Below, piece after piece: positions 1 to 15,716 of a stretch of 15,813 bases of DNA. The notes under the pieces were generated by a model that was given only the letters and a program-made list of their open reading frames with translations, did no database searches and was not told the origin of the DNA. Origin of the DNA: a virus. Made by a program: the position numbers and the translations under genes. The first letter of the stretch is position 1. Each line of letters begins with the position of its first letter. The stretch lies in the UHGV virus genome UHGV-1805274. One strand, written 5' to 3'.

Positions 1-576
1 CCGCCACCGCTCCTTCACGGCGTTTGCCGCCGCAGTGCCATCTTTTACAGTCTGCCAGACAGAGGACAGCGTATCTCCCAGAGAACCGGTTACAGCAACG
101 GCCTGTGCCGGTACGGCTGCACTGGTGTCTGTCTCTGCGTCCGGGGCTGTATCCTGCAACGACGGATAAACGGTAACGGTGAACGCGTAATAATTCAGTT
201 CATCCGCTTTAGTGCGGCATTCCCATGAATCCACCATGACGTCCACAGTGCCGAAATCAGGATGTACCAGCTCACCGCTACCCGGAGCATCAAGAGCATC
301 CATCAGCGCACCCGCTTCATCTCTGGCTGTTTCTGCGTTGCTGTTCAGAATGCAGGCGCTGAATGTACGGGAGCGAAGCTTTTTCCCCAGGTCATTGACG
401 TCGCCGGTATCACGTAACGGGTACTCGCGTTTAACCAGGCGACGTCCGCCAGCCTGTTTTTGCTCCTCGATGACGAGAAACGACACGTTACGGAACGTGC
501 CTTTGCCGGTTGTTTTCCTGCCTCCACCGGTTTTATCCCGGACAGCATTAACGGCATTTAAAGCATTTTCAAACAT
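1..576 (-). CDS. N: DNA circularization protein N-like (Mu gp43 position), N-terminal 192 codons; gene runs off the left edge of the window
   Basis: ATG at 576..574 lies 4 nt downstream of the tape measure stop (583..581). Frame is open to position 1 ([44 protein letters not shown]...). Absent from the ORF track because there is no stop in the window. Function assigned by position after tape measure as in Mu. Confidence 0.55.
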
Positions 577-580
577 GGTT

Positions 581-2653
581 TTACCAGCCCGTAATGTAGT
601 TATCGCCCGCGTAAATATTCAGCCCCATACCGTCCTCGGTGACGCGGGAACTGGTCAGACGTAACCCCTCGCCAAGTTCGACGCGCAGCGAGGCTTCCGC
701 ATTCACTTTTTGCTCCTGCGGCTCCTTATCCGGGGCCGTCCATTTCTGATACAGGTCGGTTACAAAACCGCCCAGATACTCCCCGGCGACACTGCCCAGC
801 GTGGCACCGGCAACCGTACCCAGCGGTCCGGCAAGGCTGCCAACGGCACCGCCGAGCCATGCACCGGCTGTACTGCCAATTGCGCCTGCTTTTTCATGGG
901 TTGACGCCTGCTCATCCATCAGGACGGGGGCAAGCTGTAGTGCCCCCATTACCGGGCCACCCAGACGTGACAACGCACGACCGGCACCTTTCCCCATCCA
1001 GCCCAGCGCCCCGGCACCTTTCGTCACAACCCGACCGATCACACTGCCTGAAAGTTTGTTTCCGATACCGGAAAACCACCCGCCAACAGCACGCCCGGCA
1101 TCAGCCAGCTTTCCGACCGTTCCCGTAACCAGTTGCCCGGCAGCACTGCCTGCAAGCCTGCTCAGAAGACCGGATTTACCGGGTAAAGGTAATGGTGCAG
1201 GCCGTGCCGTTACCGGTACGCCGGGTGGGGGTAATGCCAGTACAGGGCGTGGTGCAGGTAATGCCAGCGGCTGTGGCCCGGACAGCAATAACGGCTGGCG
1301 GGGTAACAGCGGGGCCATTCTTCCGCCGCTCCGTACGCGACGACCGCCGCCACTCCTGTAGCCACCAAATCCACGGGGCCAGTTGATGACAAACACACGC
1401 TGAATGCCGATACCCTGCAACAGCGTCTCAGACGTCATGGCATCCGGAACCGGCAGACCTGCCTGCCCACGTTTGCGGTTTCGCATCCAGCGCCACATAC
1501 GACGCCCGGTTTTAAACGGATAACTGGCAACCTGCCATGAGGGTTTTGCCACGGCCCAGCCTGCTCTCAGGGCTTTATTGGCAAGCCAGACAGACACCAG
1601 AACAGCAGCCAGTTTTTTCAGGCTGACAATATTCTGGTCAACCCATGCCAGCGCATCTTTACCCGGTTTCAGCCAGCGCCATAATTCCTGCGCCGCGATT
1701 TTTACCGTTCTGAACGTGGTCAGAAATTTCTGACCAATGTTTTCTGCCAGTGCGTCAAGTTCCCCGGATTTATCCGCCATGTCGTGCCAGTTAAGCACCC
1801 GGCGCATCTCGTTCTTGATTTCTTCAAAGGGGCCGCTGTTTGCCACCTTTATGCGAAATTCAAGCAGGTTGGCTTCCATCTGGGCGAACATCCCGTCCCA
1901 GGAGTTCATCGCACTGGCCTGTGCACCTTTTGACTGTTCTGACAGCGTTCTGAATACCGTCAGAATGGATTTCAGGCCCAGCTTGCCTTTTTCACCTTGT
2001 TTGCGGATATCCTTAACGTCTTTACCCAGTGCATCCGCCAGCGTCTGGTAAACGTTAATACCGTAACCGGTCAGCAGGTTGGCATCCGCCGCTGTGATTT
2101 GCTGGCGGGCAAACATCTGTTTCAGTTGCAGTGAGGCACCCTGTGCAGTGGGTAAATCCCAGCCGTGCATGGCCCCCTGATCCTGCAACATGGTGATGAA
2201 CTGTTTCGTCTGTTCATCCGTCATGCCGAAGCCTTTTGACGAACGGATCTCATCCAGAACACCACTCAGCCCCCACGTGGTGTCCTTCGCGTTCTGCTTT
2301 GCCCAGGCCATCATGGCCTGCGCTCTGACCTTATCGCCGTGATACAGCGAGTTCATGGCGATAATCTGTTGCTCACGCTGGGCGGCTGCACCAATAAACA
2401 GTTTATTGGCGGTGTAACCCACGCCAGCGATACCCAGCGCCCCGGCTGACAGCATTCGGAATGTACGGGTTGACAGAGAACCCATTCTGTCAATGGCACC
2501 AGAAACGCGCACAACCTCCATACGCAGGGCACGAAGGGAACTTTGCCCGCTACGGGACAGGGCGTTTATCTGGTTCGAATACTGGCGGGAACGCCGGGAA
2601 AGATTGCCATTAAGATCAATAATGACAGACGCCTTTAAGCGTTTCCCGGTCAT
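581..2653 (-). CDS. Tail tape measure protein (Mu gp42-like), 690 aa
   Basis: Long ORF directly downstream of sheath/tube/chaperone genes. N-terminal helical region, central Pro/Leu/Ala-rich linker and C-terminal glycine-zipper-like Gly/Ala-rich region typical of tape measure proteins. SD AGGAAA 7 nt upstream of the ATG. Confidence 0.85.
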
Positions 2654-2797
2654 AGAGATTTCCTGATTTAACGGTGATATTGAGAGAGGGTTTTAGCCTG
2701 CTGGCAGTGCCGGAAAAAGCGGGACAGCGGGAGAGACAAGGCCCATTCCGGGCCACTTTTCAGAATAACGCCAATCGCTGTCGCCGCTTTCTCAATA

Positions 2798-3232
2798 TCA
2801 TTCCGGCACCGCAGCCACTCGCCCCCGTTCTTGTGTCAGCGATGCTGCCACAGCCATGTCGTACATTTCTGTAGCCAGCGACAGACGCTGGAAGTCATCA
2901 ACAGACAGCTTGCGCATCAGCGCCAGCGATAACGGGCCTTTGATGCAACCCACGCTGGCAATCTGTCGGCGCAGCATTTCCAGTCCCATCCGGGACGGGG
3001 AACTGACCAGCACCGGGCCTTCCTTGCTCATTACCAGCTTTTCAGCAGCCGCCTGGGCATCAATCAGATCGCCTGCGGTCAGTTCACGCAGCGTCACGTC
3101 ATACTGCATTTCAGTCTCGTCACCGGTGCCGAACGGCAGGCCGTCTTTCAGTTTCAGCACGCCGGACTGAATTTCTGCCACAATGCTGTCATGCAGTTCC
3201 TGTGCTTCAGGACCTAAATTCATTTCGTCCAT
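2798..3232 (-). CDS. Tail assembly chaperone-like protein (Mu gp41 position), 144 aa
   Basis: ORF located between tail tube and tape measure genes, the conserved position of tail assembly chaperones (lambda G, P2 E). Acidic protein. Function is positional inference. Confidence 0.6.
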   Translation of the reverse strand: MDEMNLGPEAQELHDSIVAEIQSGVLKLKDGLPFGTGDETEMQYDVTLRELTAGDLIDAQAAAEKLVMSKEGPVLVSSPSRMGLEMLRRQIASVGCIKGPLSLALMRKLSVDDFQRLSLATEMYDMAVAASLTQERGRVAAVPE

Positions 3233-3241
3233 TGTTTCCCC

Positions 3242-3598
3242 TTATGCAATGCGTTTGCTTTGTTTTGCCATCAGTACCAGCGAAATTTCGCCGCCGTCGT
3301 TTTTCGGTTCATCTGCCTGCCAGGCATTCGCCATCATCCAGGTTTCACCGGTGTCTGCCTGAAACTCTGCTGTGATGTTTTCCCAGCCGATGATTTCATC
3401 CAGACCGATATCACCACCGCCCGGAATTTTGCATTCCAGCTTTGCGGCACGTGGTTTACCTTTCCAGCCATAAACCCGCGAGCCGGTCACTTCTTCACGG
3501 GTGATGCCGGAAGGTGTGAAGGAGGCCCCTTCCATCGTTTCAAGCTCCATGCCATTGACACGGATGAACGCCACCCCCTGACGCTGATTTCCAGCCAT
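3242..3598 (-). CDS. M: Tail tube protein (Mu M / gp40-like), 118 aa
   Basis: 118-aa ORF immediately downstream of the sheath gene. Size and position match Mu tail tube protein. Confidence 0.8.
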   Translation of the reverse strand: MAGNQRQGVAFIRVNGMELETMEGASFTPSGITREEVTGSRVYGWKGKPRAAKLECKIPGGGDIGLDEIIGWENITAEFQADTGETWMMANAWQADEPKNDGGEISLVLMAKQSKRIA

Positions 3599-3607
3599 AA
3601 ATGCTCC

Positions 3608-5095
3608 TTACAGAATGAACTGAACTTGTGCCGCGAAAATGCGGAACTGGTTAATCAGATTCGGGCCGCACAGCACATCAAGACGGTCTTTGTCGTCCTT
3701 GTTACGTGCCACATACAGCTCCTCTTTGAACGTGTCGAAATCCTCGACCAGTCCGGCGTTTTCCCATTCTTCAAACAGTGCCAGCAGCTCCGTTTTGATC
3801 ACGGATGGCGTCACCACGGCCTGACCGGTGGCAAAGCGGGTGCCATCACTTGCCAGCTTGTAGTTCGGGAATTTCTGCGTGATGCGGGTTCGCAGCGAAT
3901 AACGCAGATAACTCAGCGTGGCGATGGTATTCACGTTCAGATAAGACGGATCGCTGTCACCGTACTTGTTTGTGCGGTACATCGTGATCATGCGTTCAAT
4001 CTGCATTTCACCACCATCATTCACGTTAAACGTGGAGATGCCGTCAAACAGCAGCGCATTACGTTCTGACCAGGTGAAACGATCCCCCACCGCAGGCGGC
4101 ATTCTTCCGGGCAACGTCAGCGTCTGGAGTGGACGCGCCGGGTCGATGGAAAGCGCCTGGCTGGCAACGGCACACAGGGTGGCGGCGTACAGATATGACG
4201 GTTCCGGTGCACCGGCAATCCCCATACAGGAAATCAGATGGTCATTACGGCTGACACCAAACGTGGAAATATCCCCATACGTGCCGGACAGCACTGTCAC
4301 GGCAAAGCCATCAGCCTGATTGACTGGTCCCCAGCGTTCCTGCAATTCAGTGCGTAACAGATTCAGGTTCGGTTCATCGGTATAGGGCATCACAATATAT
4401 TTGTATTGCAGATCGCCCATTCCCGCGATACTTGCGCTGATATCCGGGTTGCTGTTTTTCCCGGATGCGGCTTTGAATGCCGTGATAATCCCGTAAGGGG
4501 TGGTTTCACCCGCGTAATAGTTCCAGCGCACGTCCACGGCAGATAATGCACCCGTAAATTTTGCACTCAGAACCACATCTGCATGGGTGTCATCATCCCC
4601 GCTGTCTGCGCGAACTTCTGCCGTCACCGGTAAATCAGGCTGGCCTTTGATTCGGGCAACCAGCAGGTCAGCCAGCGCCGCTCCCGTTGCACCTGCTGCG
4701 ACAGATACCGCCAGTCGCTGACCGGCAATGTAAGTCACAAGCGAGCCGTTTTCGCCTGCCGTTCCTGACAGTGAAATTTCACCGCCAGCAGCATTACCGG
4801 TGCCGTTCCCCTGCGGAATACACCACAGCTCCGCCACGCGGTTAGCGTTCAGGAATGCATCTGCCATCAGTGCCAGCATGGAACCCTGACCAAACGCCGC
4901 ACAGGCCTGTGAGCCGGAACGGATACGGACAGGCACGTTTGGTGCCGCACTGGCTTTACTTCCGCTTTGCCCGAACATCAGCACGCGCTGACGGGGTGCC
5001 GGTGTTCCGCTGACGGCATTACTGTTATCAAATTCGATATACGTCAGAGGAACGCGAACATCTGACGGGATCGCGTTAAATGAAATATCGCTCAT
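3608..5095 (-). CDS. L: Contractile tail sheath protein (Mu L / gp39-like), 495 aa
   Basis: 495-aa ORF, same length as Mu sheath protein as I recall it. Precedes tube gene. Start ATG overlaps stop of upstream small gene (ATGA). Confidence 0.88.
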
Positions 5096-5298
5096 TTCGA
5101 TTTACTCCGTTTTTTCGGCGTAGCGTCGGTATCATCCGCCGTGTTTTCAGTGCTCCCGACTTCAACCACATCACCGGCTGCAAGGCGACGTATCCAGAAA
5201 CTGTTACGGGGCTTTTCTTCTCCCTCCGGAGCCAGTAATTTCATCGTGAGCGGGTCACGGATGGCTTTTCCCGCTGCGGGTTTAATTTTCAGCATCAT
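5092..5298 (-). CDS. Small basic phage protein (Mu gp38 position), 68 aa
   Basis: Short ORF with Lys-rich C-terminus, coupled to the sheath gene start by ATGA overlap. Function unknown. Confidence 0.6.
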
Positions 5299-5830
5299 GA
5301 TCCTTTTCCTGATTCACATTGATATGTGCGGCAAATTCCGGGGTTTCGTCCGGGAATTTCCAGGTCTGCCAGTGACGCTCGTAATCATCCAGCGAATCCA
5401 TGTCCACCACGGACGGCAGCGGGGTAGTGCCACTGAACAGAACGCCGTAAAGCACCACACCGGCATTGATACGGTTGTCGTCACAAAGATTTCTGACCTG
5501 CGTCAGTCTCATCCCGGTGGTCGGGCCAAACGTCTGACCGTTAACACCGGCAATCAGTCGCTCCACAATCTGATAAATACCGGGCCGGTTTACCTGTTCC
5601 CCGTTCAGCAACTCCGCCACGACAAAAAATGCCCAGCGACTTTCAACTTCCCGACGCGTACGCCCCTCACCACAGCCCATCCATGCCAGAAATACCGATG
5701 GCGGGGCCAGAAAGAGACGGTGCACATCCTCGTTAGTCCATGTGCCGGTAAGGGGTTCCACCTGCCGCAGGGTTGCCCCAAACAACTCACGAACGCGCGC
5801 CAGCAGTGCGGCTTCGGTTTCTTCCAGCAT
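5282..5830 (-). CDS. Head-tail joining/neck protein (Mu gp37 position), 182 aa
   Basis: ORF in the head-completion gene block between major head and sheath. Start overlaps upstream stop. Function is positional. Confidence 0.65.
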   Translation of the reverse strand: MLEETEAALLARVRELFGATLRQVEPLTGTWTNEDVHRLFLAPPSVFLAWMGCGEGRTRREVESRWAFFVVAELLNGEQVNRPGIYQIVERLIAGVNGQTFGPTTGMRLTQVRNLCDDNRINAGVVLYGVLFSGTTPLPSVVDMDSLDDYERHWQTWKFPDETPEFAAHINVNQEKDHDAEN

Positions 5831-6255
5831 CAGATAAACCCCTTCTGTTTTCGTGAGAAGACCGGCGCGTCAGACTGCACCTGCACAAGGTTTTCACCAT
5901 CCGGCGAGGCTGCCGTCCTGCTTTCCACGCCGGGATCTGTTTTGCCATCGCGCACCTGTTCCAGCCAGCGCACAGTGTCCCTGTAGGCAGCGGTGATCTG
6001 CTCGGTGGGTTGTGATTCATTCAGATAAAACCAGGCCACCACGCAACACTGCCGTTTCAGCAGTGAGGGGACGACGGTAAGCGGCAGAACAAAGCGCGCG
6101 GCGAGATAGCCATCAATAAAGGCCGAGGCATCTGCCAGTGCCTGTTCTGCCACGGCATCATCCGGCTGCCCGTCCGCTGTTTTAGGGCGGGTGAGAATAT
6201 CCAGCCGCGTACGTGTATAGCGGGCGCACAAGTCATTTACCGTCGCGTAATTCAT
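5830..6255 (-). CDS. Head completion/neck protein (Mu gp36 position), 141 aa
   Basis: ORF coupled by ATGA overlap to upstream gene (stop 6252..6254, start 6255). Function is positional. Confidence 0.65.
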   Translation of the reverse strand: MNYATVNDLCARYTRTRLDILTRPKTADGQPDDAVAEQALADASAFIDGYLAARFVLPLTVVPSLLKRQCCVVAWFYLNESQPTEQITAAYRDTVRWLEQVRDGKTDPGVESRTAASPDGENLVQVQSDAPVFSRKQKGFI

Positions 6256-6662
6256 GCATCCGCCTCAGCCAGCGCCGCTTTGATTTGCGCACTGCTCACC
6301 GGTTCCCCCAGCGCCGCACTGACGGCTTTCACTTTGGGTTCTCCCCCTGCGGTAAAGTGCTCCGGATTTGCCTTATCCAGACCGGCAACGGTCGCACGGA
6401 TACGGGTATTCAGATCGCCCACACCCAGAACGTCCAGCCCCCCAGCCTCAGCGAGCGTTTCTGCTGCCGTTGTCGATACAACAGACAGCACGCTGTCGGC
6501 ACGGATAATCGCCAGTTGTTCTTCGGTGACTTCCACGGTGTTTTCGCCACGTGTAAAGGCGATTCCGGCGCGGCGGTAGACCGGACGAAGGCATTTAATA
6601 ATCGCCGTGCAAGTGATGCGAGAAGTGTCCAGCCATTGTGAATTAAGCGAAGTGCCTGACAT
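6252..6662 (-). CDS. Phage head-associated protein (Mu gp35 position), 136 aa
   Basis: ORF with strong SD (AAGGAGGA) upstream of the ATG at 6662. Directly downstream of major head gene and its terminator hairpin. Confidence 0.65.
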   Translation of the reverse strand: MSGTSLNSQWLDTSRITCTAIIKCLRPVYRRAGIAFTRGENTVEVTEEQLAIIRADSVLSVVSTTAAETLAEAGGLDVLGVGDLNTRIRATVAGLDKANPEHFTAGGEPKVKAVSAALGEPVSSAQIKAALAEADA

Positions 6663-6696
6663 AACACATGCTCCTCCTTTTCCTTTAAATCAGGTT

Positions 6697-6720
6697 AAAA
6701 GGCGGTCTGAACCGCCTTTT
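6697..6720 (-). terminator. Rho-independent terminator/attenuator hairpin immediately downstream of the major head gene
   Basis: Perfect inverted repeat AAAAGGCGG-(TCTGAA loop)-CCGCCTTTT on plus strand 6697..6720. On the transcribed minus strand it reads as a GC-rich stem followed by TTTTAACCTGATTT, 9 nt after the T stop codon (6731..6729). Its A/T flanks on both sides make it potentially bidirectional. Confidence 0.55.
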
Positions 6721-6728
6721 AATGACGG

Positions 6729-7646
6729 TTACAGGTAGTCAGCGACAACCAGTTGCAGCTTGCCCTTCATCTCGTTGGAGACGGTGGTATTGCCATCCGC
6801 GAACAGTTCACGGTTAAGCAGTTGCTCTGCGGCTTTTTCCAGCCCGACCGGTACAACGATATGCGTCGGCTTCAGGCCCAGTTTCTTACCGCCATCACCT
6901 TCAAAAGAGCGCATCAGTTGCCAGCCCTTCCAGAGGTTATCCAGCGTCAGATCGCCTTTTACCGCGACAGCCATCTGCCAGAAGCCGTAACCGGCAGCAC
7001 GCCGGGCGCTGGCACCAAACAGGAACTCGTTATCCATAAAAACGTGGTCGTCATCGATACGGGTACGTGCGACCAGTTCCGGTTTGCGGCGCTCCTGGAA
7101 AATCAGCGGTTTGACTGCGCGGGAGCAGTCCAGCAGATAGAATGGCAGACCGCTGAAGCTGTCCTGCTCAACGATGTTGGAGGTATTAACCGCGCTGCCC
7201 GTGCCATCCACAGTCGGATATACCGGATGCTCCTTGTCGAAGAAGTTCTGACCGTCATAGCAGGGCTGGGTAAAGCCATCTTTCAGAAGTTTAAAAATCA
7301 GCTCATCCGGCTGAACTGCCGCAGAACGGCCCATCTCCTGAAAAATCGGCGCATAAATACCCAGATTGTCATCCTCGAAGTCATCACGGGAAATACCCAC
7401 GGTGCCTTCAAACGTTTTATTGGCGATGGAGTAGCCATGCGCTTCCATTTGCTGAATGGTTCGCTTACCCACCCATTCTTTCAGGGTCGGGAATTTACCC
7501 AGCCAGCCATAGGTATTACTGCGGGTGGAAGAGTTCACCACCATTGCAATTTTGTTGTACTGCGACGTGGCGTCTTCAAGACCGCCCTGAAAATCCTTAC
7601 GCCAGGAGGTCATCAGGGCTTTAATGGATGCCGGGGTGACAATCAT
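6729..7646 (-). CDS. T: Major head (capsid) subunit (Mu T / gp34-like), 305 aa
   Basis: 305-aa ORF following the protease/scaffold gene. SD CAGGAAC 7 nt upstream. ATGA overlap with the I stop. Followed by terminator hairpin as is common for major capsid genes. Confidence 0.88.
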   Translation of the reverse strand: MIVTPASIKALMTSWRKDFQGGLEDATSQYNKIAMVVNSSTRSNTYGWLGKFPTLKEWVGKRTIQQMEAHGYSIANKTFEGTVGISRDDFEDDNLGIYAPIFQEMGRSAAVQPDELIFKLLKDGFTQPCYDGQNFFDKEHPVYPTVDGTGSAVNTSNIVEQDSFSGLPFYLLDCSRAVKPLIFQERRKPELVARTRIDDDHVFMDNEFLFGASARRAAGYGFWQMAVAVKGDLTLDNLWKGWQLMRSFEGDGGKKLGLKPTHIVVPVGLEKAAEQLLNRELFADGNTTVSNEMKGKLQLVVADYL

Positions 7647-8194
7647 TTTTCTTGTTCCTGTTTCATTTTCAGATACTCAGCCTCAGTAATGCCGAGCGCC
7701 TTCACTGCTGCCTGTTCATCAGCAGACAGCACCGCCACCTCCGGTTTTTCCTGCGACGGGATTTTCGCTGTGGTGGTCTGCATGGCAGATAACGCAGCGA
7801 TGGGCTGTTTTTTCTCAAGCTGTGCCGACAGTGCCGCCACGCCAATCTGACCGCCAAGCTGTTCCAGATAGGTACGTTCGCTTTTGAAAATGCGGCCTTC
7901 CTGTTCCGCCTTGTCCAGAACGGCGCTCAGGCTGGCTGTGGCGCTTTGTGCAGTCGCCTGTGCCAGTTCATCACGCAGGGCGTTGTAGCTTTCCACAGGG
8001 ACGTATTTCGTCAGGTCAACGGCGGCTTTCTGTGCCTTTTCCAGTTCGGCGGATAACGACGCCACTTTTCCGGCATCTGTTTCGAGCGCATCAAGCGCAC
8101 TCAGGGCCGCGCTGGCCTGTTCATCGGTGATGTCTGCATTTTCGGGGACAGTCACCCCAAGACGCGCAAGCAGCTTGCGCAGCGTTTCATTCAT
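7643..8194 (-). CDS. Z: Putative nested scaffold protein (Mu Z-like) from in-frame internal start within I, about 183 aa
   Basis: Internal in-frame ATG at 8194..8192 (MNETLRKLLARL...) is preceded by SD AGGAG with a 9-nt spacer. Mu is known to express a scaffold (Z) from within I. Exact internal start is not verified. Confidence 0.35.
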   Translation of the reverse strand: MNETLRKLLARLGVTVPENADITDEQASAALSALDALETDAGKVASLSAELEKAQKAAVDLTKYVPVESYNALRDELAQATAQSATASLSAVLDKAEQEGRIFKSERTYLEQLGGQIGVAALSAQLEKKQPIAALSAMQTTTAKIPSQEKPEVAVLSADEQAAVKALGITEAEYLKMKQEQEK

Positions 8195-8728
8195 GGGTTT
8201 GTTCTCCTGTTGAAGGATGTCGGGAAGGTCTGCCGCCAGTGCGGTCAGCTTTTTCATGCCGGTGGCACCGGGGTCATTGGTCAGCGCAGCAAGGCGGATT
8301 TGCAGCACTGCACCGGTGGCGGTGTCATACGGAAAAACCGCAGAGAGATAACCAAATTCGCCGTCATCGATGCGCTGCTGGGCCGCCGCCGTCCAGCGTG
8401 GGTGGATAAATAACCCTTCACCTTCACGCCACTGCATTTCATCGGCGTTAAACCAGCCAGCCGCGACGAGTTGTTCCGGGGGTAATCCTTTGTCCTTACG
8501 TAGCTGGTTATGCTCGTAATCAATCAGCACGTCCTGGTTGAGCGCGCGAACGCCTTCAACCAGACGCCCGGCAATCTCACCGTCGATGAACCACCCCTGA
8601 CCACCTGTCACATCAAACGGGCGACCATCACGGGCACTGAAATGACCGGCAGGCAATAGCTGGCACCAGCCGTCATCGTCAATGGACAGCGCATTCAGTG
8701 CGGCAATGCCAATCGCGTGTTTTTTCAT
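7643..8728 (-). CDS. I: Head maturation protease/scaffold protein (Mu I / gp32-like), 361 aa
   Basis: 361-aa ORF between G and T with Ala/Glu/Lys-rich helical C-terminal half typical of scaffold domains. Preceded by 196-bp non-coding gap. Confidence 0.82.
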   Translation of the reverse strand: MKKHAIGIAALNALSIDDDGWCQLLPAGHFSARDGRPFDVTGGQGWFIDGEIAGRLVEGVRALNQDVLIDYEHNQLRKDKGLPPEQLVAAGWFNADEMQWREGEGLFIHPRWTAAAQQRIDDGEFGYLSAVFPYDTATGAVLQIRLAALTNDPGATGMKKLTALAADLPDILQQENKPMNETLRKLLARLGVTVPENADITDEQASAALSALDALETDAGKVASLSAELEKAQKAAVDLTKYVPVESYNALRDELAQATAQSATASLSAVLDKAEQEGRIFKSERTYLEQLGGQIGVAALSAQLEKKQPIAALSAMQTTTAKIPSQEKPEVAVLSADEQAAVKALGITEAEYLKMKQEQEK

Positions 8729-8924
8729 GTCCTGCTGCTCATCATGGTTTGTGAGCAGTCAGTTTGCGGGAGGTGCGGGAAAATCTGGGGTTATGCTATT
8801 TGAGTAATGGAGAAAGAAAGTGAAAGGAAGATAAAACGGGATTCATACACCGTTAAATACCGGTTTAAAAATCCCGTGGCGCGTTTTAAAAAATCTGTGC
8901 GGCTGATTTCATGTCTGATTCTGT
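8729..8924 (-). promoter_or_regulatory. Non-coding intergenic region upstream of I; candidate C-dependent late promoter (Mu P_I equivalent)
   Basis: The only large non-coding gap (196 bp) in an otherwise tightly packed operon. It sits exactly where Mu carries late promoter P_I. Contains A/T tracts (GATTTTTTAAAAC and GATTTTTAAAC on minus strand) and a pyrimidine-rich tract. No operator or -10/-35 could be confidently assigned. Confidence 0.4.
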
Positions 8925-9395
8925 TTATTGCCTCAGAGCGGCGCTGACGCGTTTTCTGATGGCATCAAAAATTTCCTGTTCCCCGGTCTTATCCAGCCCC
9001 ATATAAGGACGCGCAGGAACGCCTGCCGGGCGGGGTGCCATATCGGGTGTACCGCCCCACTGATGAATGGCAGCATAAATTTTTGGCGAACCAATCAGGG
9101 CATAATCCTGTCCATAATCGGTGGTAATGCTGCGTGCCAGATCGCCATGCAGGGTAAGAATACTGCCCGGAACAAAACCATGATCCTGACGCCATGCCTG
9201 CCACGAATCGCTCCACGCTTCCCAGCCTTTCCCTGTATCCGGGTCTGCCTGCCGTTCAAATGCCTGTTCCGTGGATGACAGCAGCGCCGCAGCCATCACA
9301 CGGGGAATGGCGCGGTCACGTGTAACGGTTCCCAGTTCATCCAGTGCAAGCTGAATACGTCGCACATCCACGGCAACGTTCATATCAAGACTCAC
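8925..9395 (-). CDS. G: Virion morphogenesis protein G (Mu gp31-like), 156 aa
   Basis: ORF starting at GTG 9395 with strong SD GGAGGTG 5 nt upstream. GTGA overlap with F stop. Size matches Mu G. Confidence 0.78.
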   Translation of the reverse strand: MSLDMNVAVDVRRIQLALDELGTVTRDRAIPRVMAAALLSSTEQAFERQADPDTGKGWEAWSDSWQAWRQDHGFVPGSILTLHGDLARSITTDYGQDYALIGSPKIYAAIHQWGGTPDMAPRPAGVPARPYMGLDKTGEQEIFDAIRKRVSAALRQ

Positions 9396-10711
9396 TTATT
9401 CACCTCCACATGCCCCTCCAGTACGTCAATCATCCCGTCAGCAATCGCGGCTTCAAGCGACTGTGCAGATACGCGGCTGATACTGACCAGCACATCCGCA
9501 CGGTCATTCTGTCTGCCGACTGTCTGTGATGTTCTGACCACAATCCGGGCCATGCCGTCACGGGTTGCCACGACATACAGCAACTGGTGGTTCTCCCTGT
9601 CCCACAATACCGCCTGTGGTTTTGCCATCAGCGACGGCAGACGCTGTAAATCCTCCGGTTTCAGGGCGGCATCAGAAGTGGTCGCCAGACTTTTCCCGTT
9701 CATCACAAGCAGACGGGCTGGCATATTCCCGGTGCGCTGATATACGGCCTCCGCCACGGATCCCGTCATAAAACCCAGCGCACGGACCTCATGTCCTGCC
9801 CGGCGTGATTTCGCCAGACGTTTAAGCCAGAGGGAAAAAGCAAGCTGACGCTCCCGGCTGTTATTCAGCGTCTGAACAACCTGCTCACGCAGCTGCGCGT
9901 CACGAACTTCCACCAGTTTTCGAATCAGTGCCTGATCCGTACCAAATGCCGCCGAACCGGGGTTATATGACCAGCCCACATCTGGCGTCATTTTTACCCG
10001 ACCGTTGTCAAACGTGGTTGACGATGTGCGGAAAATCTCTCCGGTGCTTTCATCCGTACCGGCATCCACTTCGCGGGTATTCATGAATGACGCACCATAA
10101 CTGACCTGTAGCCCCAGTTCTTTCATGCGGGCCGCAGACAGCGCCCGGACGCGACAGCGGCAGTTCCAGCCATTGGGCGGGTAATGCGTCTGCCAGAAAA
10201 TGTCGTCATACTGGAAAACCATATTGTGCAGCCGCGCATGTTCCGGGCGTGTTCTGCCATCCATAACGGCAACGTACTGCCAGTACGGGTACAAATCGGC
10301 GGTATTCATCATCTGCGCATAACGTCCTGCCCCATACGCCGTACGGGTATTGACGTTATAAATGGTTGCCAGACGACGCGGACTACCCAGCTCGATTACC
10401 TTCGCGTTTCCCTCTGCATCCACGATGATTTGTTTTCCCCACCATCCGAGTTTTTGCAGCCGGGGGGCCAGTGTGCGGGTAAATTCCTCACGGGTGATGC
10501 CTTCACTGACAGCCCGCTCCACTTCCTCACGGATTGTGGTCAGGACATCCATCCGGGTGGCTTTGGCAACGGTAAAGGCGCGGGCGTGCGCGTCTGCCAG
10601 TTGTTCGTACCAGTTCCAGGTGATGTTGTAGCCTTTGGCGCGGAAATACGCGACAGCCTCCTTTGGCGGGAGGCGTGCGGCATACGCCAGATCAATGGTC
10701 TGCTGCGGCAT
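9392..10711 (-). CDS. F: Minor head/virion morphogenesis protein F (MuF family, Mu gp30-like)
   Basis: ORF containing the MuF-family motif (...HYPPNGWNCRCRVRAL...). Start placed at ATG 10711 (MPQQTIDL...) with GGGGG SD. Track ORF extends to GTG 10747; either start overlaps the portal stop at 10692..10694. Confidence 0.8.
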   Translation of the reverse strand: MPQQTIDLAYAARLPPKEAVAYFRAKGYNITWNWYEQLADAHARAFTVAKATRMDVLTTIREEVERAVSEGITREEFTRTLAPRLQKLGWWGKQIIVDAEGNAKVIELGSPRRLATIYNVNTRTAYGAGRYAQMMNTADLYPYWQYVAVMDGRTRPEHARLHNMVFQYDDIFWQTHYPPNGWNCRCRVRALSAARMKELGLQVSYGASFMNTREVDAGTDESTGEIFRTSSTTFDNGRVKMTPDVGWSYNPGSAAFGTDQALIRKLVEVRDAQLREQVVQTLNNSRERQLAFSLWLKRLAKSRRAGHEVRALGFMTGSVAEAVYQRTGNMPARLLVMNGKSLATTSDAALKPEDLQRLPSLMAKPQAVLWDRENHQLLYVVATRDGMARIVVRTSQTVGRQNDRADVLVSISRVSAQSLEAAIADGMIDVLEGHVEVNK

Positions 10712-12230
10712 CCAGACGCCCCCATATATCGGCAACAAAAATGGCACGGGTCAGCATGTCGATAAGTTCTGCATCATCCATCTGCGGATATAATGAAGCG
10801 GCTTTGTTCATGGCGGCTTCCGGGCCATCTTTCAGCACAGAAAAAATGACGGGTTTCAGCAGGGGGTCAACCGAACGCTGCCAGTCTTCCGGTGAGACGC
10901 CCATCCGGTCGATATCATCCTCCTGCGGGATATCTTCAGCGGATAATGCGGCCTCTTTCTGCGAACCGTTATCCGGGACAACCGGTTGTATAGTAAACAC
11001 GGCTTCATCACCGACCGGCTGTGGAATATGAAGTTTTTCCTGTATCCAGGAGACCGGAATACGCATTCCCGCCGCCAGTTTCGGAATGGCGTCAGACAGT
11101 GCCGTAATATCACCCGCTTCACTGGTATCAAATACAATGCCCGGCAGGCGGTTAATATCAATGGTGCTGTCACTGTTCAGTGCCAGCAGGGGATAAATCA
11201 GGTCACGGTTAATACTGCGGGCAAGCTGGCCCACATCCGCATTACGGATTTCCCGGCGAACCTCATCATGCACTTCACCCAGCGACCGCGCACCTTTATC
11301 GCCAGCCTCTGTGGTCAGGGTGCCGCCCAGAATGGCTTTTGAAATCGCTTTTTCTGCCCAGCCAATCATCGCCATAAAAGGGTCTGACTGACCATCTGCG
11401 GCGCTCTGAAAATCCAGCGTCATCCCCATCGGAATAATGCCACCGGCACGTCGCCCGATATCCATCACGGCCTGCATCAGCGTGGCTTTCTCGCGGTTCG
11501 TTGAGCCGGTCGGATATTTACCGACGCGCATGGGGAGTCCGTAAATTTCCAGAAACTCTGCAAAATCACGCACGGAATAGTTTTTAAAAATAAAAGGCCA
11601 GATAAGCGTGCGCACAAGGCCATTGGTGCCGACATACCCGGTGCGGGATTTGGCCCGGTGCATAAACCAGCCGAACGGTTGCAGCTCCAGCCCGTGATAA
11701 GACGCATCACGCAGGCGTAATTCGTTCAGATTGTCGGGGTTCGCGCAGAACAGCGCCGGATCGCGATGATGCAGCGCCACCGGCACGCGCATTTTCCCCA
11801 GCCAGCCCCATTCAATCTCCTGCATGGAATAGCCCTTGAGAATGGCATCACCGGCATCAAACAGGGCATCTTCAAACCACGCCGCATCATGCAGATATTC
11901 ATTCAGCATGTCGGCGTCTTTTTTCTCCTGTGCGCTGGCATCACGTGCCGGAGCGATGCGCCATTCCAGCGCCTGAATGGCAAGGCGGCGTTTGCTCAGT
12001 TCGGAAAAAAGGTGGGTGTCCTTTTCTTCCATATCAAAGGCCAGGTCAGCCTGTGCTGTCAGATCACCGCGTTCGGCATCACGCAGCATCTGCGCGGCCC
12101 GGTTCGGCGTCACACCACTGGAAGGATGCTCCTGCGTACGCTTCATGACCATTGCCAGCTCATCGCTGCGGGTCTGCATTTCATCGTCAAAATCAAACGG
12201 CTGCCCGGAAATATCCAGAATACGGCCCAT
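10692..12230 (-). CDS. H: Portal protein (Mu H / gp29-like), 512 aa
   Basis: 512-aa ORF immediately downstream of large terminase with TAATG stop/start overlap. SD GAGGGGG upstream. Acidic C-terminus typical of portals. Confidence 0.88.
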   Translation of the reverse strand: MGRILDISGQPFDFDDEMQTRSDELAMVMKRTQEHPSSGVTPNRAAQMLRDAERGDLTAQADLAFDMEEKDTHLFSELSKRRLAIQALEWRIAPARDASAQEKKDADMLNEYLHDAAWFEDALFDAGDAILKGYSMQEIEWGWLGKMRVPVALHHRDPALFCANPDNLNELRLRDASYHGLELQPFGWFMHRAKSRTGYVGTNGLVRTLIWPFIFKNYSVRDFAEFLEIYGLPMRVGKYPTGSTNREKATLMQAVMDIGRRAGGIIPMGMTLDFQSAADGQSDPFMAMIGWAEKAISKAILGGTLTTEAGDKGARSLGEVHDEVRREIRNADVGQLARSINRDLIYPLLALNSDSTIDINRLPGIVFDTSEAGDITALSDAIPKLAAGMRIPVSWIQEKLHIPQPVGDEAVFTIQPVVPDNGSQKEAALSAEDIPQEDDIDRMGVSPEDWQRSVDPLLKPVIFSVLKDGPEAAMNKAASLYPQMDDAELIDMLTRAIFVADIWGRLDAAADH

Positions 12231-13885
12231 TACCAGCCCCCTCGTTCAAACTGGTGATAATCATCAAAATCATCGTTATCAACACCATCACCACGGTGGC
12301 GTGGTGGCAGCGCCTGTATGCTGTCCTCGTCGATAACAAAACCATTCATATAAGACGCCCTGACAGCCATACAGAGCGCCACGGCAAAGTCGCCATGTCG
12401 TCGGCCTTTACCGCCTTCGTCTTTTGTGCGCCCCTTATCAATCTGCGGAATACCTTTGTCCACCTTGATGTGGAGCAGGTCATCAAGTGTGGTCTGGTGC
12501 CGGGCAATCGTGATGTTCTGCGCTTCAAACTCGCCTTTCAGTTTCGGCATCCACTCCTGATACCAGGATGCGGTCAGATTCACACAGTCGATCATCTCCG
12601 GGCCATAAATCAGACGGGCGGCTTCTGCCAGATAACCGCCGTTACCGGTGGCATCAAATGCAGCGCCGGTAAAACGGGGCAAACGGGACAGAATGAATAA
12701 AAGGATTTGTCGCTGCTGGTCATAGGTCACATTACGCAGCTCCACGCGGAAACATTCGTGTTTGCGTAAGTCAGGAGTGATGGCAAGCGGCACAAACACC
12801 GTCAGGTCGCCACGGCGTGCAAAGTCTTCGCCCAGTACGTGTTTATTGAGCGGCGACAGCGCATCGAGCAACGGGAGCAGCTCCTGTTCACACCAGTCCT
12901 GAACGATGCCGTGGCGCATTTGTGGTGTCAGCGATTCAAAATCGTCCGGGGCTTCAAAACGCAGAATCGGGATATCCCGCGCTGGCGTCATGGCGGCTTC
13001 AATCAGCACGCGTGACAGATAAGCGCCCCCGGATTTTTTAGGAATGCAGCCGTATTCCTCGTCGGCACTCTCTTTATTCGGCGCATTCCGGTACAGGCCA
13101 TCACGCCAGGCTTTTTCCGCTTCCGGCGACCACGACTGATTCGTGACGTAACAGATACGCCGGTACAGTCCGTCAGCGATGGCATCATCCAGCGTGATGC
13201 GGTGAACGCTGTAATCCTTGCGCCCCTCGCGCGCATCCTGAATGTACTGGTTAAACAGGTTATCGACGCCGTTATGTGTCGATATGATCCGCACGCGGGC
13301 ACCCCACATGGTGAGCGCAAAAGCCGCTTTCAGGAGTTCGTCCAGGGCTTCATGAAATGCCGCCTCATCAATCACCACGTCCCCCTGCAAACCACGCAGG
13401 TTAGACGGACGGCTTGACAGCGCCTGCACCTTAAATCCGCTGTTCGGAAAGCGGATCATGTAGGTGAGGATTTCTTCTTTTTTGTCGCTGTCCCAGAAGG
13501 TCTGCTCCCATACGTCAGCCTTTGCCAGCTGGTTAAAGGCGCGGGCAAACAGGGCACAGGCGGCAATGTATTCCAGCGCCATTTCCTGACGAGAACCCAC
13601 ATAAAAGACGTTGCGACCACCGCGACGCCTCGGCTTTGCGGCCGTCATGACATTGCGGCCCGCTTCGGCCCATGTCAGACCGGTACGACGGGATTTTTCA
13701 GCGATGCAAATCTGGCTTTCATCCTCAAACCAGCGGCGCTGATAGCCCAGAAAAACCGGTTCATTGCGGGGCTGTGCTTCCCCGATATCGGTCACGATAT
13801 TCACGCCGAGCAGTCCGGCTTCCTCACGCAGGTTGATTTTGCGGGGGGCATGAAGGGCTTTAAGGTTGTTTTCTCTGGTGTTCAT
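12230..13885 (-). CDS. Terminase large subunit (Mu gp28-like), about 551 aa
   Basis: Long ORF between small terminase and portal. Start placed at ATG 13885 (MNTRENN...), 7 nt after the small terminase stop, with GAGAGGG upstream. Track ORF begins at 13972 but that extension overlaps the small terminase gene. Confidence 0.85.
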   Translation of the reverse strand: MNTRENNLKALHAPRKINLREEAGLLGVNIVTDIGEAQPRNEPVFLGYQRRWFEDESQICIAEKSRRTGLTWAEAGRNVMTAAKPRRRGGRNVFYVGSRQEMALEYIAACALFARAFNQLAKADVWEQTFWDSDKKEEILTYMIRFPNSGFKVQALSSRPSNLRGLQGDVVIDEAAFHEALDELLKAAFALTMWGARVRIISTHNGVDNLFNQYIQDAREGRKDYSVHRITLDDAIADGLYRRICYVTNQSWSPEAEKAWRDGLYRNAPNKESADEEYGCIPKKSGGAYLSRVLIEAAMTPARDIPILRFEAPDDFESLTPQMRHGIVQDWCEQELLPLLDALSPLNKHVLGEDFARRGDLTVFVPLAITPDLRKHECFRVELRNVTYDQQRQILLFILSRLPRFTGAAFDATGNGGYLAEAARLIYGPEMIDCVNLTASWYQEWMPKLKGEFEAQNITIARHQTTLDDLLHIKVDKGIPQIDKGRTKDEGGKGRRHGDFAVALCMAVRASYMNGFVIDEDSIQALPPRHRGDGVDNDDFDDYHQFERGGW

Positions 13886-13892
13886 AACCCTC

Positions 13893-14468
13893 TCATGCCT
13901 TACCCAGCAGTACATCACGGATACGCTGCTCCAGCTCTTCGCTGATGCCATCCTGCCCGCGCAGTTCTTCACTCACGGCGTTTGCCGCTTCTTCTGCGAA
14001 TGCCTGGCGGATTTCTTTCTCGCGCCGGTGGCTGGACATTGCCGTGGATTCCAGACGCTGTGCCGCCAGCATGGCATTTTTCAGCAGGTCAATATCCACG
14101 TCAGATTCCGGGTTTTCGATTTGCCGCATCATGGCCTTAAAAAGCTGGCTGCGGGCCATTTCCAGAATCAGCTTTGTGGTTTCTCCCATTGGCTTGTCGC
14201 CAAGTTCTGCGGTCAGTGCTGACGTCATTTCACGCATCTGTCGCAGGTTATGGCCTACCTGCTCGACGTTCGTCGCGTAACGGTTCAGACCGGAACGGGA
14301 GAGTTTCATCTCATCCGGCAGGCCAGCGTCTTCAATCAGTACGTTAATTTCTTCCAGAATGCGGGCCTGTGGGATCGCTTTATCACGCAGCATTTCATGC
14401 AGCGTTTTACGTACGTTTTCCGGCAGTAAATCCACTTTTGAAGCCCGGCCCCGTGTTTTCCTGTCCAT
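13893..14468 (-). CDS. Terminase small subunit-like protein (Mu gp27 position), about 191 aa
   Basis: ORF directly upstream of large terminase. Start placed at ATG 14468 (MDRKTRGRASKV...), preceded by SD AGGAGG with 4-nt spacer. Track start 14483 lacks an SD. Basic N-terminus consistent with DNA binding. Confidence 0.65.
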   Translation of the reverse strand: MDRKTRGRASKVDLLPENVRKTLHEMLRDKAIPQARILEEINVLIEDAGLPDEMKLSRSGLNRYATNVEQVGHNLRQMREMTSALTAELGDKPMGETTKLILEMARSQLFKAMMRQIENPESDVDIDLLKNAMLAAQRLESTAMSSHRREKEIRQAFAEEAANAVSEELRGQDGISEELEQRIRDVLLGKA

Positions 14469-14479
14469 CACGCCTCCTG

Positions 14480-14770
14480 TCATGCACGGGGACGAGGACG
14501 CTTGACACCGGCAACGCGGGCACGACCTTCTGCCACATCCTGACCTCGGGAGGTCAGCGTTACGACATAAAAGCCGCGCAGGTTTTCCACGGTGACCAGT
14601 TGCTGCTCTGCCAGCCAGTCAATCTGGCCGCGAACCACATCGCGGGAAACGTTGTGTCCGTATGCATCCAGACAGTCCTGAAGGATGGATTCGTTTGCTT
14701 CGTTATTGCAGTCCATCAGGGAACGCAGGATGACCAGACGACGGTCTTCGGTCAGAATATCGTTAATCAT
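14480..14770 (-). CDS. Small phage protein (Mu gp26 position), 96 aa; possible DNA-binding fold
   Basis: ORF with SD GGAG 6 nt upstream. ATGA overlap with upstream gene stop. Basic Arg/Pro-rich C-terminal tail. Function unknown. Confidence 0.6.
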   Translation of the reverse strand: MINDILTEDRRLVILRSLMDCNNEANESILQDCLDAYGHNVSRDVVRGQIDWLAEQQLVTVENLRGFYVVTLTSRGQDVAEGRARVAGVKRPRPRA

Positions 14771-15066
14771 GAATTACTCCGGTTTACTGCGTTTTCAAGC
14801 AGCAGCTCCAGTTGATGGGAAAATGACTGCACCCGCTGGGACAGCACCCGGATATCGCCGGACAGCTCTGCAATTCGCAGGCGCATTTCGTGTACATCTT
14901 CTGTGCCAGGGATGCTGGCGTAGCGGGTTTCCATTTCGGTCATCCGGTTTTCAAGACGCTCCACACGCTCAGTGCTGGCAAAACTACGACGCATTGCCCA
15001 GACGGCCCCACCGGCCACAACAGGCAACAGGTAAGGCCATAACGCTAAAACTGAAATCAAATCCAT
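14767..15066 (-). CDS. Membrane-anchored coiled-coil protein (Mu gp25 position; possibly the lysis 'releasin'), about 99 aa
   Basis: N-terminal hydrophobic segment (LISVLALWPYLLPVVAGGAVWA) followed by charged helical region. Start ATG 15066 with SD GGAG, overlapping the zinc-finger gene stop (TAATG). Track start at 15084 is a GTG without SD. Confidence 0.6.
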   Translation of the reverse strand: MDLISVLALWPYLLPVVAGGAVWAMRRSFASTERVERLENRMTEMETRYASIPGTEDVHEMRLRIAELSGDIRVLSQRVQSFSHQLELLLENAVNRSNS

Positions 15067-15260
15067 TATTCTGCTCCACGGCACCAGTGGCAGTAGTTCG
15101 CCATCGGCTGCTGTCTCAGCACATCAGGCCGCAGCTCACGACCGCAACCGGCACACAATACAGGCGGGTCATACGCCGCCGGGCGGGGAATATCACGGGT
15201 ATCCCCCTGCCAGAGTTCAGCGAGCAGCAGCGCCACCGCCCGGTTCTGGTCTTCGTTCAT
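15066..15260 (-). CDS. TraR/DksA-family C4 zinc-finger protein, 64 aa
   Basis: Motif CAGC-x17-CHWC (CxxC-x17-CxxC), the spacing of TraR/DksA C4 zinc fingers. Acidic N-terminus (MNEDQN...). SD AAGGAAAG upstream of the ATG at 15260. Confidence 0.7.
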   Translation of the reverse strand: MNEDQNRAVALLLAELWQGDTRDIPRPAAYDPPVLCAGCGRELRPDVLRQQPMANYCHWCRGAE

Positions 15261-15573: not shown

Positions 15574-15716
15574 CTGCCAGCCGCGCGGCACGATTTGCGG
15601 CACGGATAGCGGAAAATACCTGCATCGTCTGTTCCTGACCGTGTAACAACCATTCAGCCGTGTTGCGGGCCTGTTGCTCCGTCTGTAATTCACGGCGCAG
15701 CGTCTGGTTATCGTGG
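15419..15716 (-). CDS. Probable i-spanin (Rz-like) C-terminal part; 5' end lost in or beyond the terminal palindrome
   Basis: Frame open from at least 15716 to stop at 15419, encoding a charged coiled-coil-like sequence (...QTLRRELQTEQQARNTAEWLLHGQEQT...AADRLRELEKRTRAI...). Overlaps the lipoprotein gene in another frame. N-terminal TMD not visible. Confidence 0.45.

What the first reader, a model, noticed from the sequence alone, without database searches (positions are those of the whole stretch)
2654..2860. Possible programmed frameshift extension of the chaperone-like gene into the 144-bp gap before the tape measure gene
The gp41-like ORF stops at 2800..2798, yet the next gene starts only at 2653. 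The +1 frame relative to gp41 is open for 55 codons (2835..2671, ...HKNGGEWLRCRNDIEKAATAIGVILKSGPEWALSLPLSRFFRHCQQAKTLSQYHR) and ends at TAA 2670..2668, 14 nt before the tape measure ATG. That geometry resembles lambda G/GT and P2 E/E+E', where a frameshifted chaperone extension ends just before the tape measure gene. Caveats: those systems shift -1, whereas the open frame here is +1; I found no canonical slippery heptamer; and a 55-codon open frame in GC-rich DNA can occur by chance.
Basis: partly seen in the sequence, partly recalled or inferred. Interest (0 to 1): 0.45.

Follow-up and report, generated by a model that had tools for sequence, protein, structure and literature searches.

The report
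Phage Mu tail-chaperone -2 frameshift

Summary
The window is the late (head and tail) region of a Mu-type phage or prophage, with genes on the minus strand. It is 98-99% identical to Mu, D108 and Yersinia Mu-like phages.

The "missing" slippery site is GG GGG CGA at 2826..2819, seven codons before the gp41 stop. A -2 shift there enters the same frame as +1 and adds 50 residues, ending at TAA 2670..2668, 14 nt before the tape measure ATG.

From the slip site to the extension stop the window is base-for-base identical to phage Mu. The Mu GenBank record annotates this joined CDS as "verified -2 translational frameshift in PMID 15469818". UniProt lists it as FS-gp41.

On this sequence alone the open frame is weak evidence, with about a 12% chance of arising at random. 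Comparison with 94 related loci settles it. Nearly all keep an in-frame G-run followed by CGA, and they keep a 44-50 aa extension that ends beside the tape measure start. The extension frame shows dN/dS of about 0.25.

Verdict: observation confirmed, interpretation supported (direction is -2, not +1), already known, low interest.

The parts
2798..3232 (-). gp41, the tail assembly chaperone made by standard decoding (144 aa, stop TGA 2800..2798)
   Evidence: ORF list and translation. Pfam PF23746 Gp41_Mu scores 118 bits against a cut-off of 27, and PHROG 508 is 'tail assembly chaperone'. Mu_41 and D108 gene 41 are annotated at the homologous position.
2819..2826 (-). Slip site GG GGG CGA (0-frame codons CGG 2827..2825, GGG 2824..2822, CGA 2821..2819)
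   Evidence: Read directly from the sequence. Identical in Mu and D108. Described as the Mu -2 tandem slippage site in PMC3458567. An in-frame G-run plus CGA is present in 92 of 97 sequences examined. CGG, GGG and CGA are used in 40, 43 and 43 of 43 distinct contexts, while flanking positions fall to 33-80% conservation.
2668..2820 (-). The -2 frame extension: 50 codons from GAG 2820..2818 (EWLRCRNDIEK...SQYHR) plus stop TAA 2670..2668. The fused product is join(3232..2819, 2820..2668), 188 aa.
   Evidence: Translation. Base-for-base identical to Mu. PHROG 12783 hit at E=9e-29. The exact Mu fusion proteins exist as GenBank UIW09302.1 and UniProt P0DJY4. dN/dS is about 0.25 and differences by codon position are 1621/769/2659.
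2661..2664 (-). Ribosome binding site (AGGA) of the tape measure gene, in the 14-nt spacer after the extension stop
   Evidence: Sequence. The Mu record annotates the homologous bases as a ribosome_binding_site for Mu_42.
581..2653 (-). Tape measure protein gene (690 aa), the presumed client of the chaperone pair
   Evidence: ORF. Pfam TMP_3 PF20155 at 58.7 bits against a cut-off of 41. Mu_42 annotation.
3242..3598 (-). Tail tube protein gene (118 aa), immediately upstream of gp41
   Evidence: Pfam Tail_tube PF10618 at 121 bits. Mu_40 annotation.
3608..5095 (-). Tail sheath protein gene (495 aa, Mu L)
   Evidence: Pfam Phage_sheath_1, sheath domain II and sheath C-terminal domain. Mu_39 annotation.

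Best explanation
This is the programmed -2 ribosomal frameshift of the Mu-type tail assembly chaperone gene.

Most ribosomes translate gp41 (144 aa) and stop at TGA 2800..2798. A small fraction does something else; about 2.2% is reported for Mu. When GGG (2824..2822) is in the P site and CGA (2821..2819) is in the A site, these ribosomes slip two bases backwards on GG GGG CGA. tRNA-Gly re-pairs with GGG 2826..2824, and tRNA-Arg (anticodon ICG) re-pairs with GGC 2823..2821. Decoding then continues at GAG 2820..2818 for 50 more codons to TAA 2670..2668. The result is a 188-aa fusion (gp41 + extension, 'FS-gp41').

What is shown: the sequence features, their identity to Mu, and their conservation under purifying selection. 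What comes from published work on Mu: that the fusion is made, and that the shift is -2. What is inferred by analogy with lambda G/GT: both proteins coat the tape measure protein through the shared gp41 part; the helical extension recruits the tail tube protein so that the tube polymerises around the tape measure; and neither protein stays in the virion.
For: - The window is Mu-type. It is 99.3% identical to D108 and 97.5% to Mu over 2400..3400, and 98-99% over nearly the whole window.
- The Mu record AF083977 has a joined CDS, Mu_56, noted as 'verified -2 translational frameshift in PMID 15469818'.
- The window is identical to Mu from the slip site through the extension stop.
- Literature: tandem -2 slippage on GG GGG CGA (PMC3458567). 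Efficiency about 2.2%, then the only known natural -2 case (PMC3498833). Review (PMC5009743).
- The exact Mu fusion proteins are in GenBank and UniProt.
- Gene order is sheath, tube, gp41, tape measure.
- Comparative data: 92 of 97 sequences have an in-frame G4-7 run followed by CGA. There are 59 distinct extension DNAs of 44-50 aa (one of 32). The 0-frame tail varies from 1 to 22 codons. The extension stop lies within 17 nt of the tape measure start wherever the start call was reliable.
- Synonymous codon choice at CGG GGG CGA is nearly fixed.
- dN/dS is about 0.25, with most changes at third positions of the extension frame.
- The extension frame has no ATG or GTG start.
Against: - Nothing was measured on this window itself. 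The claim rests on sequence identity to Mu.
- No stimulatory RNA structure was found 3' of the slip site: the fold z-score is -0.61 and the covariation term is about 0. What sets the efficiency therefore remains unexplained.
- Databases disagree on the junction residue. GenBank has RGR-EWL, which fits tandem slippage. UniProt has RGG-EWL, which fits P-site-only slippage. I could not read the primary paper.
- A few relatives have only four G's, in frame (TCG GGG CGA, CAG GGG CGA). P-site re-pairing after a -2 shift would be imperfect there.
- The chaperone mechanism in Mu is inferred by analogy with lambda.
Confidence: 0.95

Rival explanations
1. The same fusion protein is made, but by a +1 ribosomal shift. 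P-site tRNA-Gly would move from GGG to GGC while the A site waits on the slowly decoded CGA codon. The product would be 187 aa (…QERG-EWL…).
For: +1 and -2 shifts reach the same frame. CGA is invariant at the A-site position, which would also fit a 'hungry codon' +1 model. Lineages with only four in-frame G's (TCG GGG CGA, CAG GGG CGA) re-pair poorly after a -2 shift.
Against: The Mu record states that a -2 shift was verified. Three papers describe it as -2. Both database fusion proteins are 188 aa, the -2 length, and the 187-aa Mu version is not in the collection. The near-fixed CGG codon supplies the two extra G's that are needed only for a -2 shift.
Confidence: 0.03
2. The extension is a separate small gene ('41.5', as annotated in phage D108), translated from its own start codon rather than by frameshifting.
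For: D108 GQ357916 annotates a 48-aa '41.5' ORF. Its protein starts MRCRND…, which means a CTG read as Met. PHROG 12783 is a family of such stand-alone calls. The G-run could act as a Shine-Dalgarno-like element 9 nt upstream of that CTG (inference).
Against: The extension frame has no ATG or GTG. The only canonical start is a TTG that would give 23 aa. Conservation of the frame starts right at the slip site (E/D-W/L…), upstream of the proposed CTG. Slip-site codons are fixed at synonymous positions. The fused product was verified in Mu.
Confidence: 0.01
3. The shift happens in the mRNA. RNA polymerase would slip on the G5 run, deleting one G or adding two, and the edited transcript would then be translated normally.
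For: Adding two G's would give RGG-EWL, the UniProt junction. Protein data alone could not separate that junction from P-site-only -2 slippage (inference). Genomic G4 variants that fuse the frames do exist.
Against: Established knowledge: bacterial transcriptional slippage normally needs longer A/T homopolymers, and five G's is short. An invariant CGA after the run has no role in polymerase slippage but does in tRNA re-pairing. The literature treats the shift as ribosomal.
Confidence: 0.01
4. The open frame is a chance feature of a non-coding spacer in GC-rich DNA.
For: About a 12-14% chance of 50 open codons in this composition.
Against: The length and end point of the extension are conserved in 59 distinct sequences from Enterobacteriaceae to Vibrio, Aeromonas and Bilophila. 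dN/dS is about 0.25. Other frames are full of stops. No promoter, convincing terminator or Rfam RNA lies in the gap.
Confidence: 0.005

Closest known systems
Phage Mu gp41 / FS-gp41 (Mu_41 / Mu_56; UniProt P0DJY4), the -2 programmed frameshift of Xu, Hendrix & Duda 2004
   Same: It is the same element. The slip site and the whole extension are nucleotide-identical, gp41 is 96-97% identical, and the gene order and spacing to the tape measure gene are the same.
   Different: Only a few substitutions in the gp41 body and one base in the spacer before the tape measure ATG. The window is slightly closer to D108 and the Yersinia Mu-like phages than to Mu itself.
Lambda G/GT tail assembly chaperones
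   Same: Same position between the tail tube gene and the tape measure gene. [quoted passage not shown] The extension ORF ends next to the tape measure start (PMC5009743).
   Different: Lambda shifts -1 on a G GGA AAG-type heptamer, whereas here the shift is -2 on GG GGG CGA. There is no detectable sequence similarity. Lambda has a non-contractile tail and Mu a contractile one. The roles of the Mu proteins are inferred, not shown.
P2 E / E+E' (Pfam Phage_TAC_7, PF10109)
   Same: A myovirus chaperone pair before the tape measure gene. There is a weak Pfam relationship: 23.2 bits, just under the 25-bit cut-off.
   Different: P2 uses a -1 shift. The family match is below the curated threshold, and the extension has no Pfam match.
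Other natural -2 frameshifts (arterivirus nsp2TF, Trichomonas vaginalis virus 1)
   Same: The direction of the shift, and the extra residue relative to a +1 shift (PMC5009743).
   Different: Eukaryotic RNA viruses with different slip sites (for example G GUU UUU or CC CUU UUU) and, in arteriviruses, a protein trans-activator. They are unrelated genes.

Membership tests
Frameshifted tail assembly chaperone pair of tailed phages (lambda G/GT type; Xu et al. 2004) | The gene lies between the major tail/tail tube gene and the tape measure gene | tested here: met
   The order is sheath 5095..3608, tube 3598..3242, gp41 3232..2798, tape measure 2653..581. Each is supported by Pfam hits.
Frameshifted tail assembly chaperone pair of tailed phages (lambda G/GT type; Xu et al. 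2004) | A second ORF overlaps the 3' end of the first in another frame, has no start of its own, and ends next to the tape measure start | tested here: met
   The frames overlap over 2835..2798. The extension frame has no ATG or GTG. Its stop is 14 nt before the tape measure ATG. The same geometry is seen in 59 distinct relatives.
Frameshifted tail assembly chaperone pair of tailed phages (lambda G/GT type; Xu et al. 2004) | A slippery sequence in the overlap, conserved at the nucleotide level | tested here: met
   GG GGG CGA at 2826..2819. An in-frame G-run plus CGA is found in 92 of 97 sequences. Synonymous codon choice is nearly fixed while the flanks vary. Caveat: the motif was used to anchor the alignment. 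The 5 exceptions are 3 G4-fused variants, 1 frame-disrupted copy and 1 truncated contig.
Frameshifted tail assembly chaperone pair of tailed phages (lambda G/GT type; Xu et al. 2004) | The fusion protein is actually made at a low, fixed ratio | not testable with these tools
   Published for Mu: 'verified -2 translational frameshift in PMID 15469818', at about 2.2% (PMC3498833). It is transferred here through nucleotide identity.
Frameshifted tail assembly chaperone pair of tailed phages (lambda G/GT type; Xu et al. 2004) | Both products are needed for tail assembly, bind the tape measure protein, and are absent from virions | not testable with these tools
   Shown for lambda (PMC5009743). Only inferred for Mu-type phages.
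Pfam Gp41_Mu (PF23746) | Score above the curated gathering threshold | tested here: met
   118.4 bits against a cut-off of 27, covering residues 28-138 and the full profile.
Pfam Phage_TAC_7 (PF10109; P2 E, Mu gp41, gp14) | Score above the curated gathering threshold | tested here: inconclusive
   23.2 bits against a cut-off of 25. Some close homologues carry the precomputed PF10109 hit.
Canonical -1 programmed frameshift (X XXY YYZ heptamer) | An X XXY YYZ heptamer in the 0 frame, and a conserved open -1 frame reaching the tape measure gene | tested here: not met
   CGG GGG CGA does not fit X XXY YYZ (read from the sequence). The -1 frame closes 12 codons after the gp41 stop here, and after 1-90 codons in relatives, so it is not conserved.

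The most novel reading that the evidence does not exclude
The most novel reading not excluded concerns the wider family, not this window.

The CGG GGG CGA signal is kept across the whole Gp41_Mu family, from Enterobacteriaceae to Vibrio, Aeromonas and Bilophila. This suggests that -2 frameshifting is ancestral and widespread rather than a Mu curiosity.

A few lineages have only four in-frame G's (Edwardsiella-type TCG GGG CGA, and CAG GGG CGA). There the P-site tRNA cannot re-pair fully after a -2 shift. They may have switched to +1, or use a mismatched -2 shift. If so, they would be natural test cases for what decides the direction of a shift. The unresolved R-versus-G junction residue in the databases bears on the same question (tandem versus P-site-only slippage).
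Probability: 0.2. Interest if true: 0.3.

Novelty: already known. Interest (0 to 1): 0.08.

Why it matters
For this window it matters mainly for annotation. The 144-nt "gap" is coding, and the correct annotation is a joined CDS, join(3232..2819, 2820..2668) on the minus strand. It should not be called an intergenic spacer or a stand-alone "41.5" ORF. Several deposited genomes get this wrong: D108 has the separate ORF, and the Yersinia Mu-like phage records list only hypothetical proteins there.

Biologically, Mu remains the classic natural bacterial example of -2 programmed frameshifting. The wide conservation of its slip site seen here confirms that the signal is under strong selection. It adds nothing fundamentally new.

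Tried and rejected
- **Stimulatory RNA structure 3' of the slip site.** The single-sequence fold of 2818..2730 is no better than shuffles (z = -0.61). The alignment fold of 8 relatives has a covariation term of about 0. The one stable hairpin, GGCCCGGAATGGGCC at 2754..2740, lies about 65 nt downstream, too far to act as a stimulator, and it encodes the conserved GPEWA.
- **Regulatory reading of the gap.** No promoter-like sites, terminator-like hits within chance expectation, and no Rfam family.
- **Function of the extension from sequence.** No Pfam or NCBIfam match. Only PHROG 12783, 'unknown function'.
- **Function from structure.** No PDB sequence relative. The AlphaFold2 model of a naturally fused homologue, P0001, is confident (pLDDT 83.5) and shows the extension as two helices. 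Foldseek against the PDB gave nothing below E = 0.05, with TM-scores under 0.35, so no fold assignment was made.
- **The primary paper** (PMID 15469818) is not in the held library. A text search for the slip-site string found only an unrelated ribosome binding site.
- **Stop-free status of the extension frame in relatives** is true by construction. I rely instead on the conserved length, the conserved end point and dN/dS.

Full report
**1. The observation**

On the minus strand the window carries, in order:

- a 495-aa tail sheath gene (5095..3608)
- a 118-aa tail tube gene (3598..3242)
- a 144-aa ORF (3232..2798, stop TGA 2800..2798)
- a 144-nt stretch with no called gene
- a 690-aa tape measure gene starting at ATG 2653

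Pfam supports these assignments.

The frame +1 relative to the 144-aa ORF is open for 55 codons (2835..2671, HKNGGEWLRC…SQYHR). It stops at TAA 2670..2668, 14 nt before the tape measure ATG.

On this sequence alone the open frame is weak evidence. In the +1 frame of this window's genes, 12% of positions are followed by at least 50 stop-free codons. Base composition gives a probability of about 0.14.

**2. What the window is**

Region 2400..3400 is 99.3% identical to phage D108 and 97.5% to phage Mu. Nearly the whole window is 98-99% identical to Mu-type phages, with Yersinia phage vB_YpM_5 the closest at 99.3%. The window is therefore the late morphogenesis region of a Muvirus.

**3. What the feature is**

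The Mu record AF083977 annotates two CDS that start at the same ATG:

- Mu_41, the 144-aa tail assembly chaperone.
- Mu_56, a CDS joined from two pieces that ends at the extension stop. Its note reads [quoted passage not shown].

An alignment of window, Mu and D108 over 2870..2640 shows the window identical to Mu at every base from the slip site to the extension stop.

Published descriptions of it are:

- Tandem -2 slippage on GG GGG CGA. The A-site tRNA-Arg (anticodon ICG) pairs better in the -2 frame than in the -1 frame (PMC3458567).
- Efficiency of about 2.2%, at the time the only known natural -2 case (PMC3498833).
- A review listing Mu among the -2 examples and explaining the lambda G/GT model (PMC5009743).

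The exact Mu fusion sequences exist as GenBank UIW09302.1 and UniProt P0DJY4, "Probable tail assembly protein FS-gp41".

**4. Independent comparative test**

I searched with an alignment of 22 gp41 homologues that are 44-87% identical to the query. In this alignment the C-terminal Gly-Arg of the R-G-R motif is invariant, and the Arg preceding it is kept in at least 90% of sequences. The search returned 14 genomic and 80 viral loci.

- **Motif.** Of 97 sequences (the 94 loci plus Mu, D108 and the window), 92 have an in-frame run of 4-7 G followed by CGA near the gp41 3' end. GGGGGCGA is by far the commonest form.
- **Exceptions.** The five without it are three G4 variants whose frames are fused, one copy with an upstream frame disruption, and one 271-nt contig.
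- **Extension.** There are 59 distinct extension DNA sequences. The extension is 44-50 aa in 58 of them, while the 0-frame tail varies from 1 to 22 codons.
- **End point.** The extension stop lies within 17 nt of the start of the next long ORF wherever my automatic start call was reliable.
- **Taxa.** They include Kluyvera, Erwinia, Edwardsiella, Vibrio, Aliivibrio, Aeromonas, Pluralibacter and Bilophila.
- **Codon choice.** Over 43 distinct contexts, the three slip-site codons are CGG (40), GGG (43) and CGA (43), although Arg has six codons and Gly four. Neighbouring positions are only 33-80% conserved. The G4-CGA core was the anchor for this table, so the informative part is the fixed codon choice and the rarity of loci that lack the motif.
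- **Selection.** In 18 enterobacterial sequences, the part of the extension beyond the overlap has pooled pS 0.52, pN 0.19 and dN/dS of about 0.25. Differences by codon position are 1621/769/2659. This is purifying selection on a protein in exactly this frame.
- **Other frames.** They are littered with stops.

**5. Mechanism**

Shown here:

- the sequence signal, its position in the overlap and its conservation
- selection on the extension as protein
- the absence of an ATG or GTG start in the extension frame

Taken from the literature on the identical Mu sequence: that the fusion is made, at about 2%, by a -2 shift.

Inferred by analogy with lambda G/GT: gp41 and the gp41 part of the fusion coat the tape measure protein, the extension recruits the tail tube protein, and neither ends up in the virion.

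An AlphaFold2 model of a naturally fused homologue (P0001) has mean pLDDT 83.5 and predicts the extension as two helices following a long helix. That is all the structure adds.

I found no stimulatory RNA structure, no promoter or convincing terminator and no Rfam family. What tunes the efficiency is not evident from sequence. One speculation, not tested: the G-run can itself pair with the anti-Shine-Dalgarno sequence.

**6. Rivals**

- **A +1 shift.** Contradicted by the -2 verification and by the 188-aa database products.
- **A stand-alone "41.5" gene, as annotated in D108.** It would need a CTG start, and it ignores conservation that begins at the slip site.
- **Transcriptional slippage on five G's.** Mechanistically unlikely, and it leaves the invariant CGA unexplained.
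- **Chance.** Excluded by section 4.

**7. Comparison and novelty**

This is the known Mu element itself, in a close relative of Mu. It works like lambda G/GT and P2 E/E+E' but is not a canonical -1 X XXY YYZ site. That feature was tested and not met.

It is a member of Pfam Gp41_Mu (118 bits against a cut-off of 27). It falls just below threshold for Phage_TAC_7 (23.2 against 25).

Novelty: already known. Interest is low. The practical value is correct annotation of the "gap" as join(3232..2819, 2820..2668).

**8. Loose ends**

- GenBank and UniProt disagree on the junction residue (RGR-EWL against RGG-EWL).
- Some assemblies carry a G4 run that permanently fuses the frames. At least one looks like long-read homopolymer error, while another sits among intact neighbouring genes in a Logan assembly.
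- Two lineages keep only four G's in frame.

None of these changes the verdict for this window.

Noticed in passing
window 2819..2826 (-); proteins P0041 and P0042: GenBank UIW09302.1 (Mu_56) and UniProt P0DJY4 both give a 188-aa -2 product but differ at the junction residue. GenBank has …QERGR-EWL…, which implies tandem slippage after Arg decoding. UniProt has …QERGG-EWL…, which implies P-site-only slippage. The primary paper was not available to settle it.
   Followed up: partly
L098:1905-1915 (Logan ERR1010218); L005/L042 (Kluyvera genomosp. 3); L007 (Erwinia tracheiphila); L097 (ENA tig00000985): These relatives have GGGG instead of GGGGG before CGA. That puts gp41 and the extension in one frame, giving a constitutive 187-199 aa fusion (…RG-EWL…) and no free gp41. 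In L097 the neighbouring sheath and tape measure genes are fragmented, so long-read homopolymer error is likely. In L098 the neighbours are intact, so it could be a real mutation in a prophage.
   Followed up: partly
L008/L051 (Edwardsiella-type), L049/L050, L006: In-frame slip-site variants: TCG GGG CGA and CAG GGG CGA (four G's) and CAG GGG GGG CGA (seven G's). All keep a 49-50 aa extension that, in the four-G loci, ends 2-4 nt before the tape measure start. With four G's the P-site tRNA cannot fully re-pair after a -2 shift, so the direction or mechanism may differ.
   Followed up: no
L002:1187-1333 (D108 GQ357916 gene 41.5); also Yersinia phage records MT374852-6: D108 annotates the extension as a stand-alone 48-aa ORF '41.5' starting at a CTG read as Met. 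The closest Yersinia Mu-like phage records list only 'hypothetical protein' here. These look like annotation gaps rather than biology.
   Followed up: partly
window 2740..2754 (-): A perfect 6-bp GC-rich hairpin, GGCCCGGAATGGGCC, lies inside the extension and encodes the conserved GPEWA. It was flagged as terminator-like, but its T tract is poor and the hit count is within chance. Its stem is largely invariant in relatives. It is about 65 nt 3' of the slip site, too far for a classical frameshift stimulator.
   Followed up: partly
window 15721..15813: The megablast match of the whole window to Mu-type phage records covers window 11..15720 only. The last ~93 bases at the high-coordinate end, upstream in gene orientation, have no high-identity match in the phage collection.
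   Followed up: no
window 2674..2874 (+) and 2493..2666 (+): Antisense ORFs of 66 and 57 aa overlap the extension and the start of the tape measure gene. No promoter-like site is nearby, and the antisense frames are not consistently open in relatives. They are probably spurious.
   Followed up: partly
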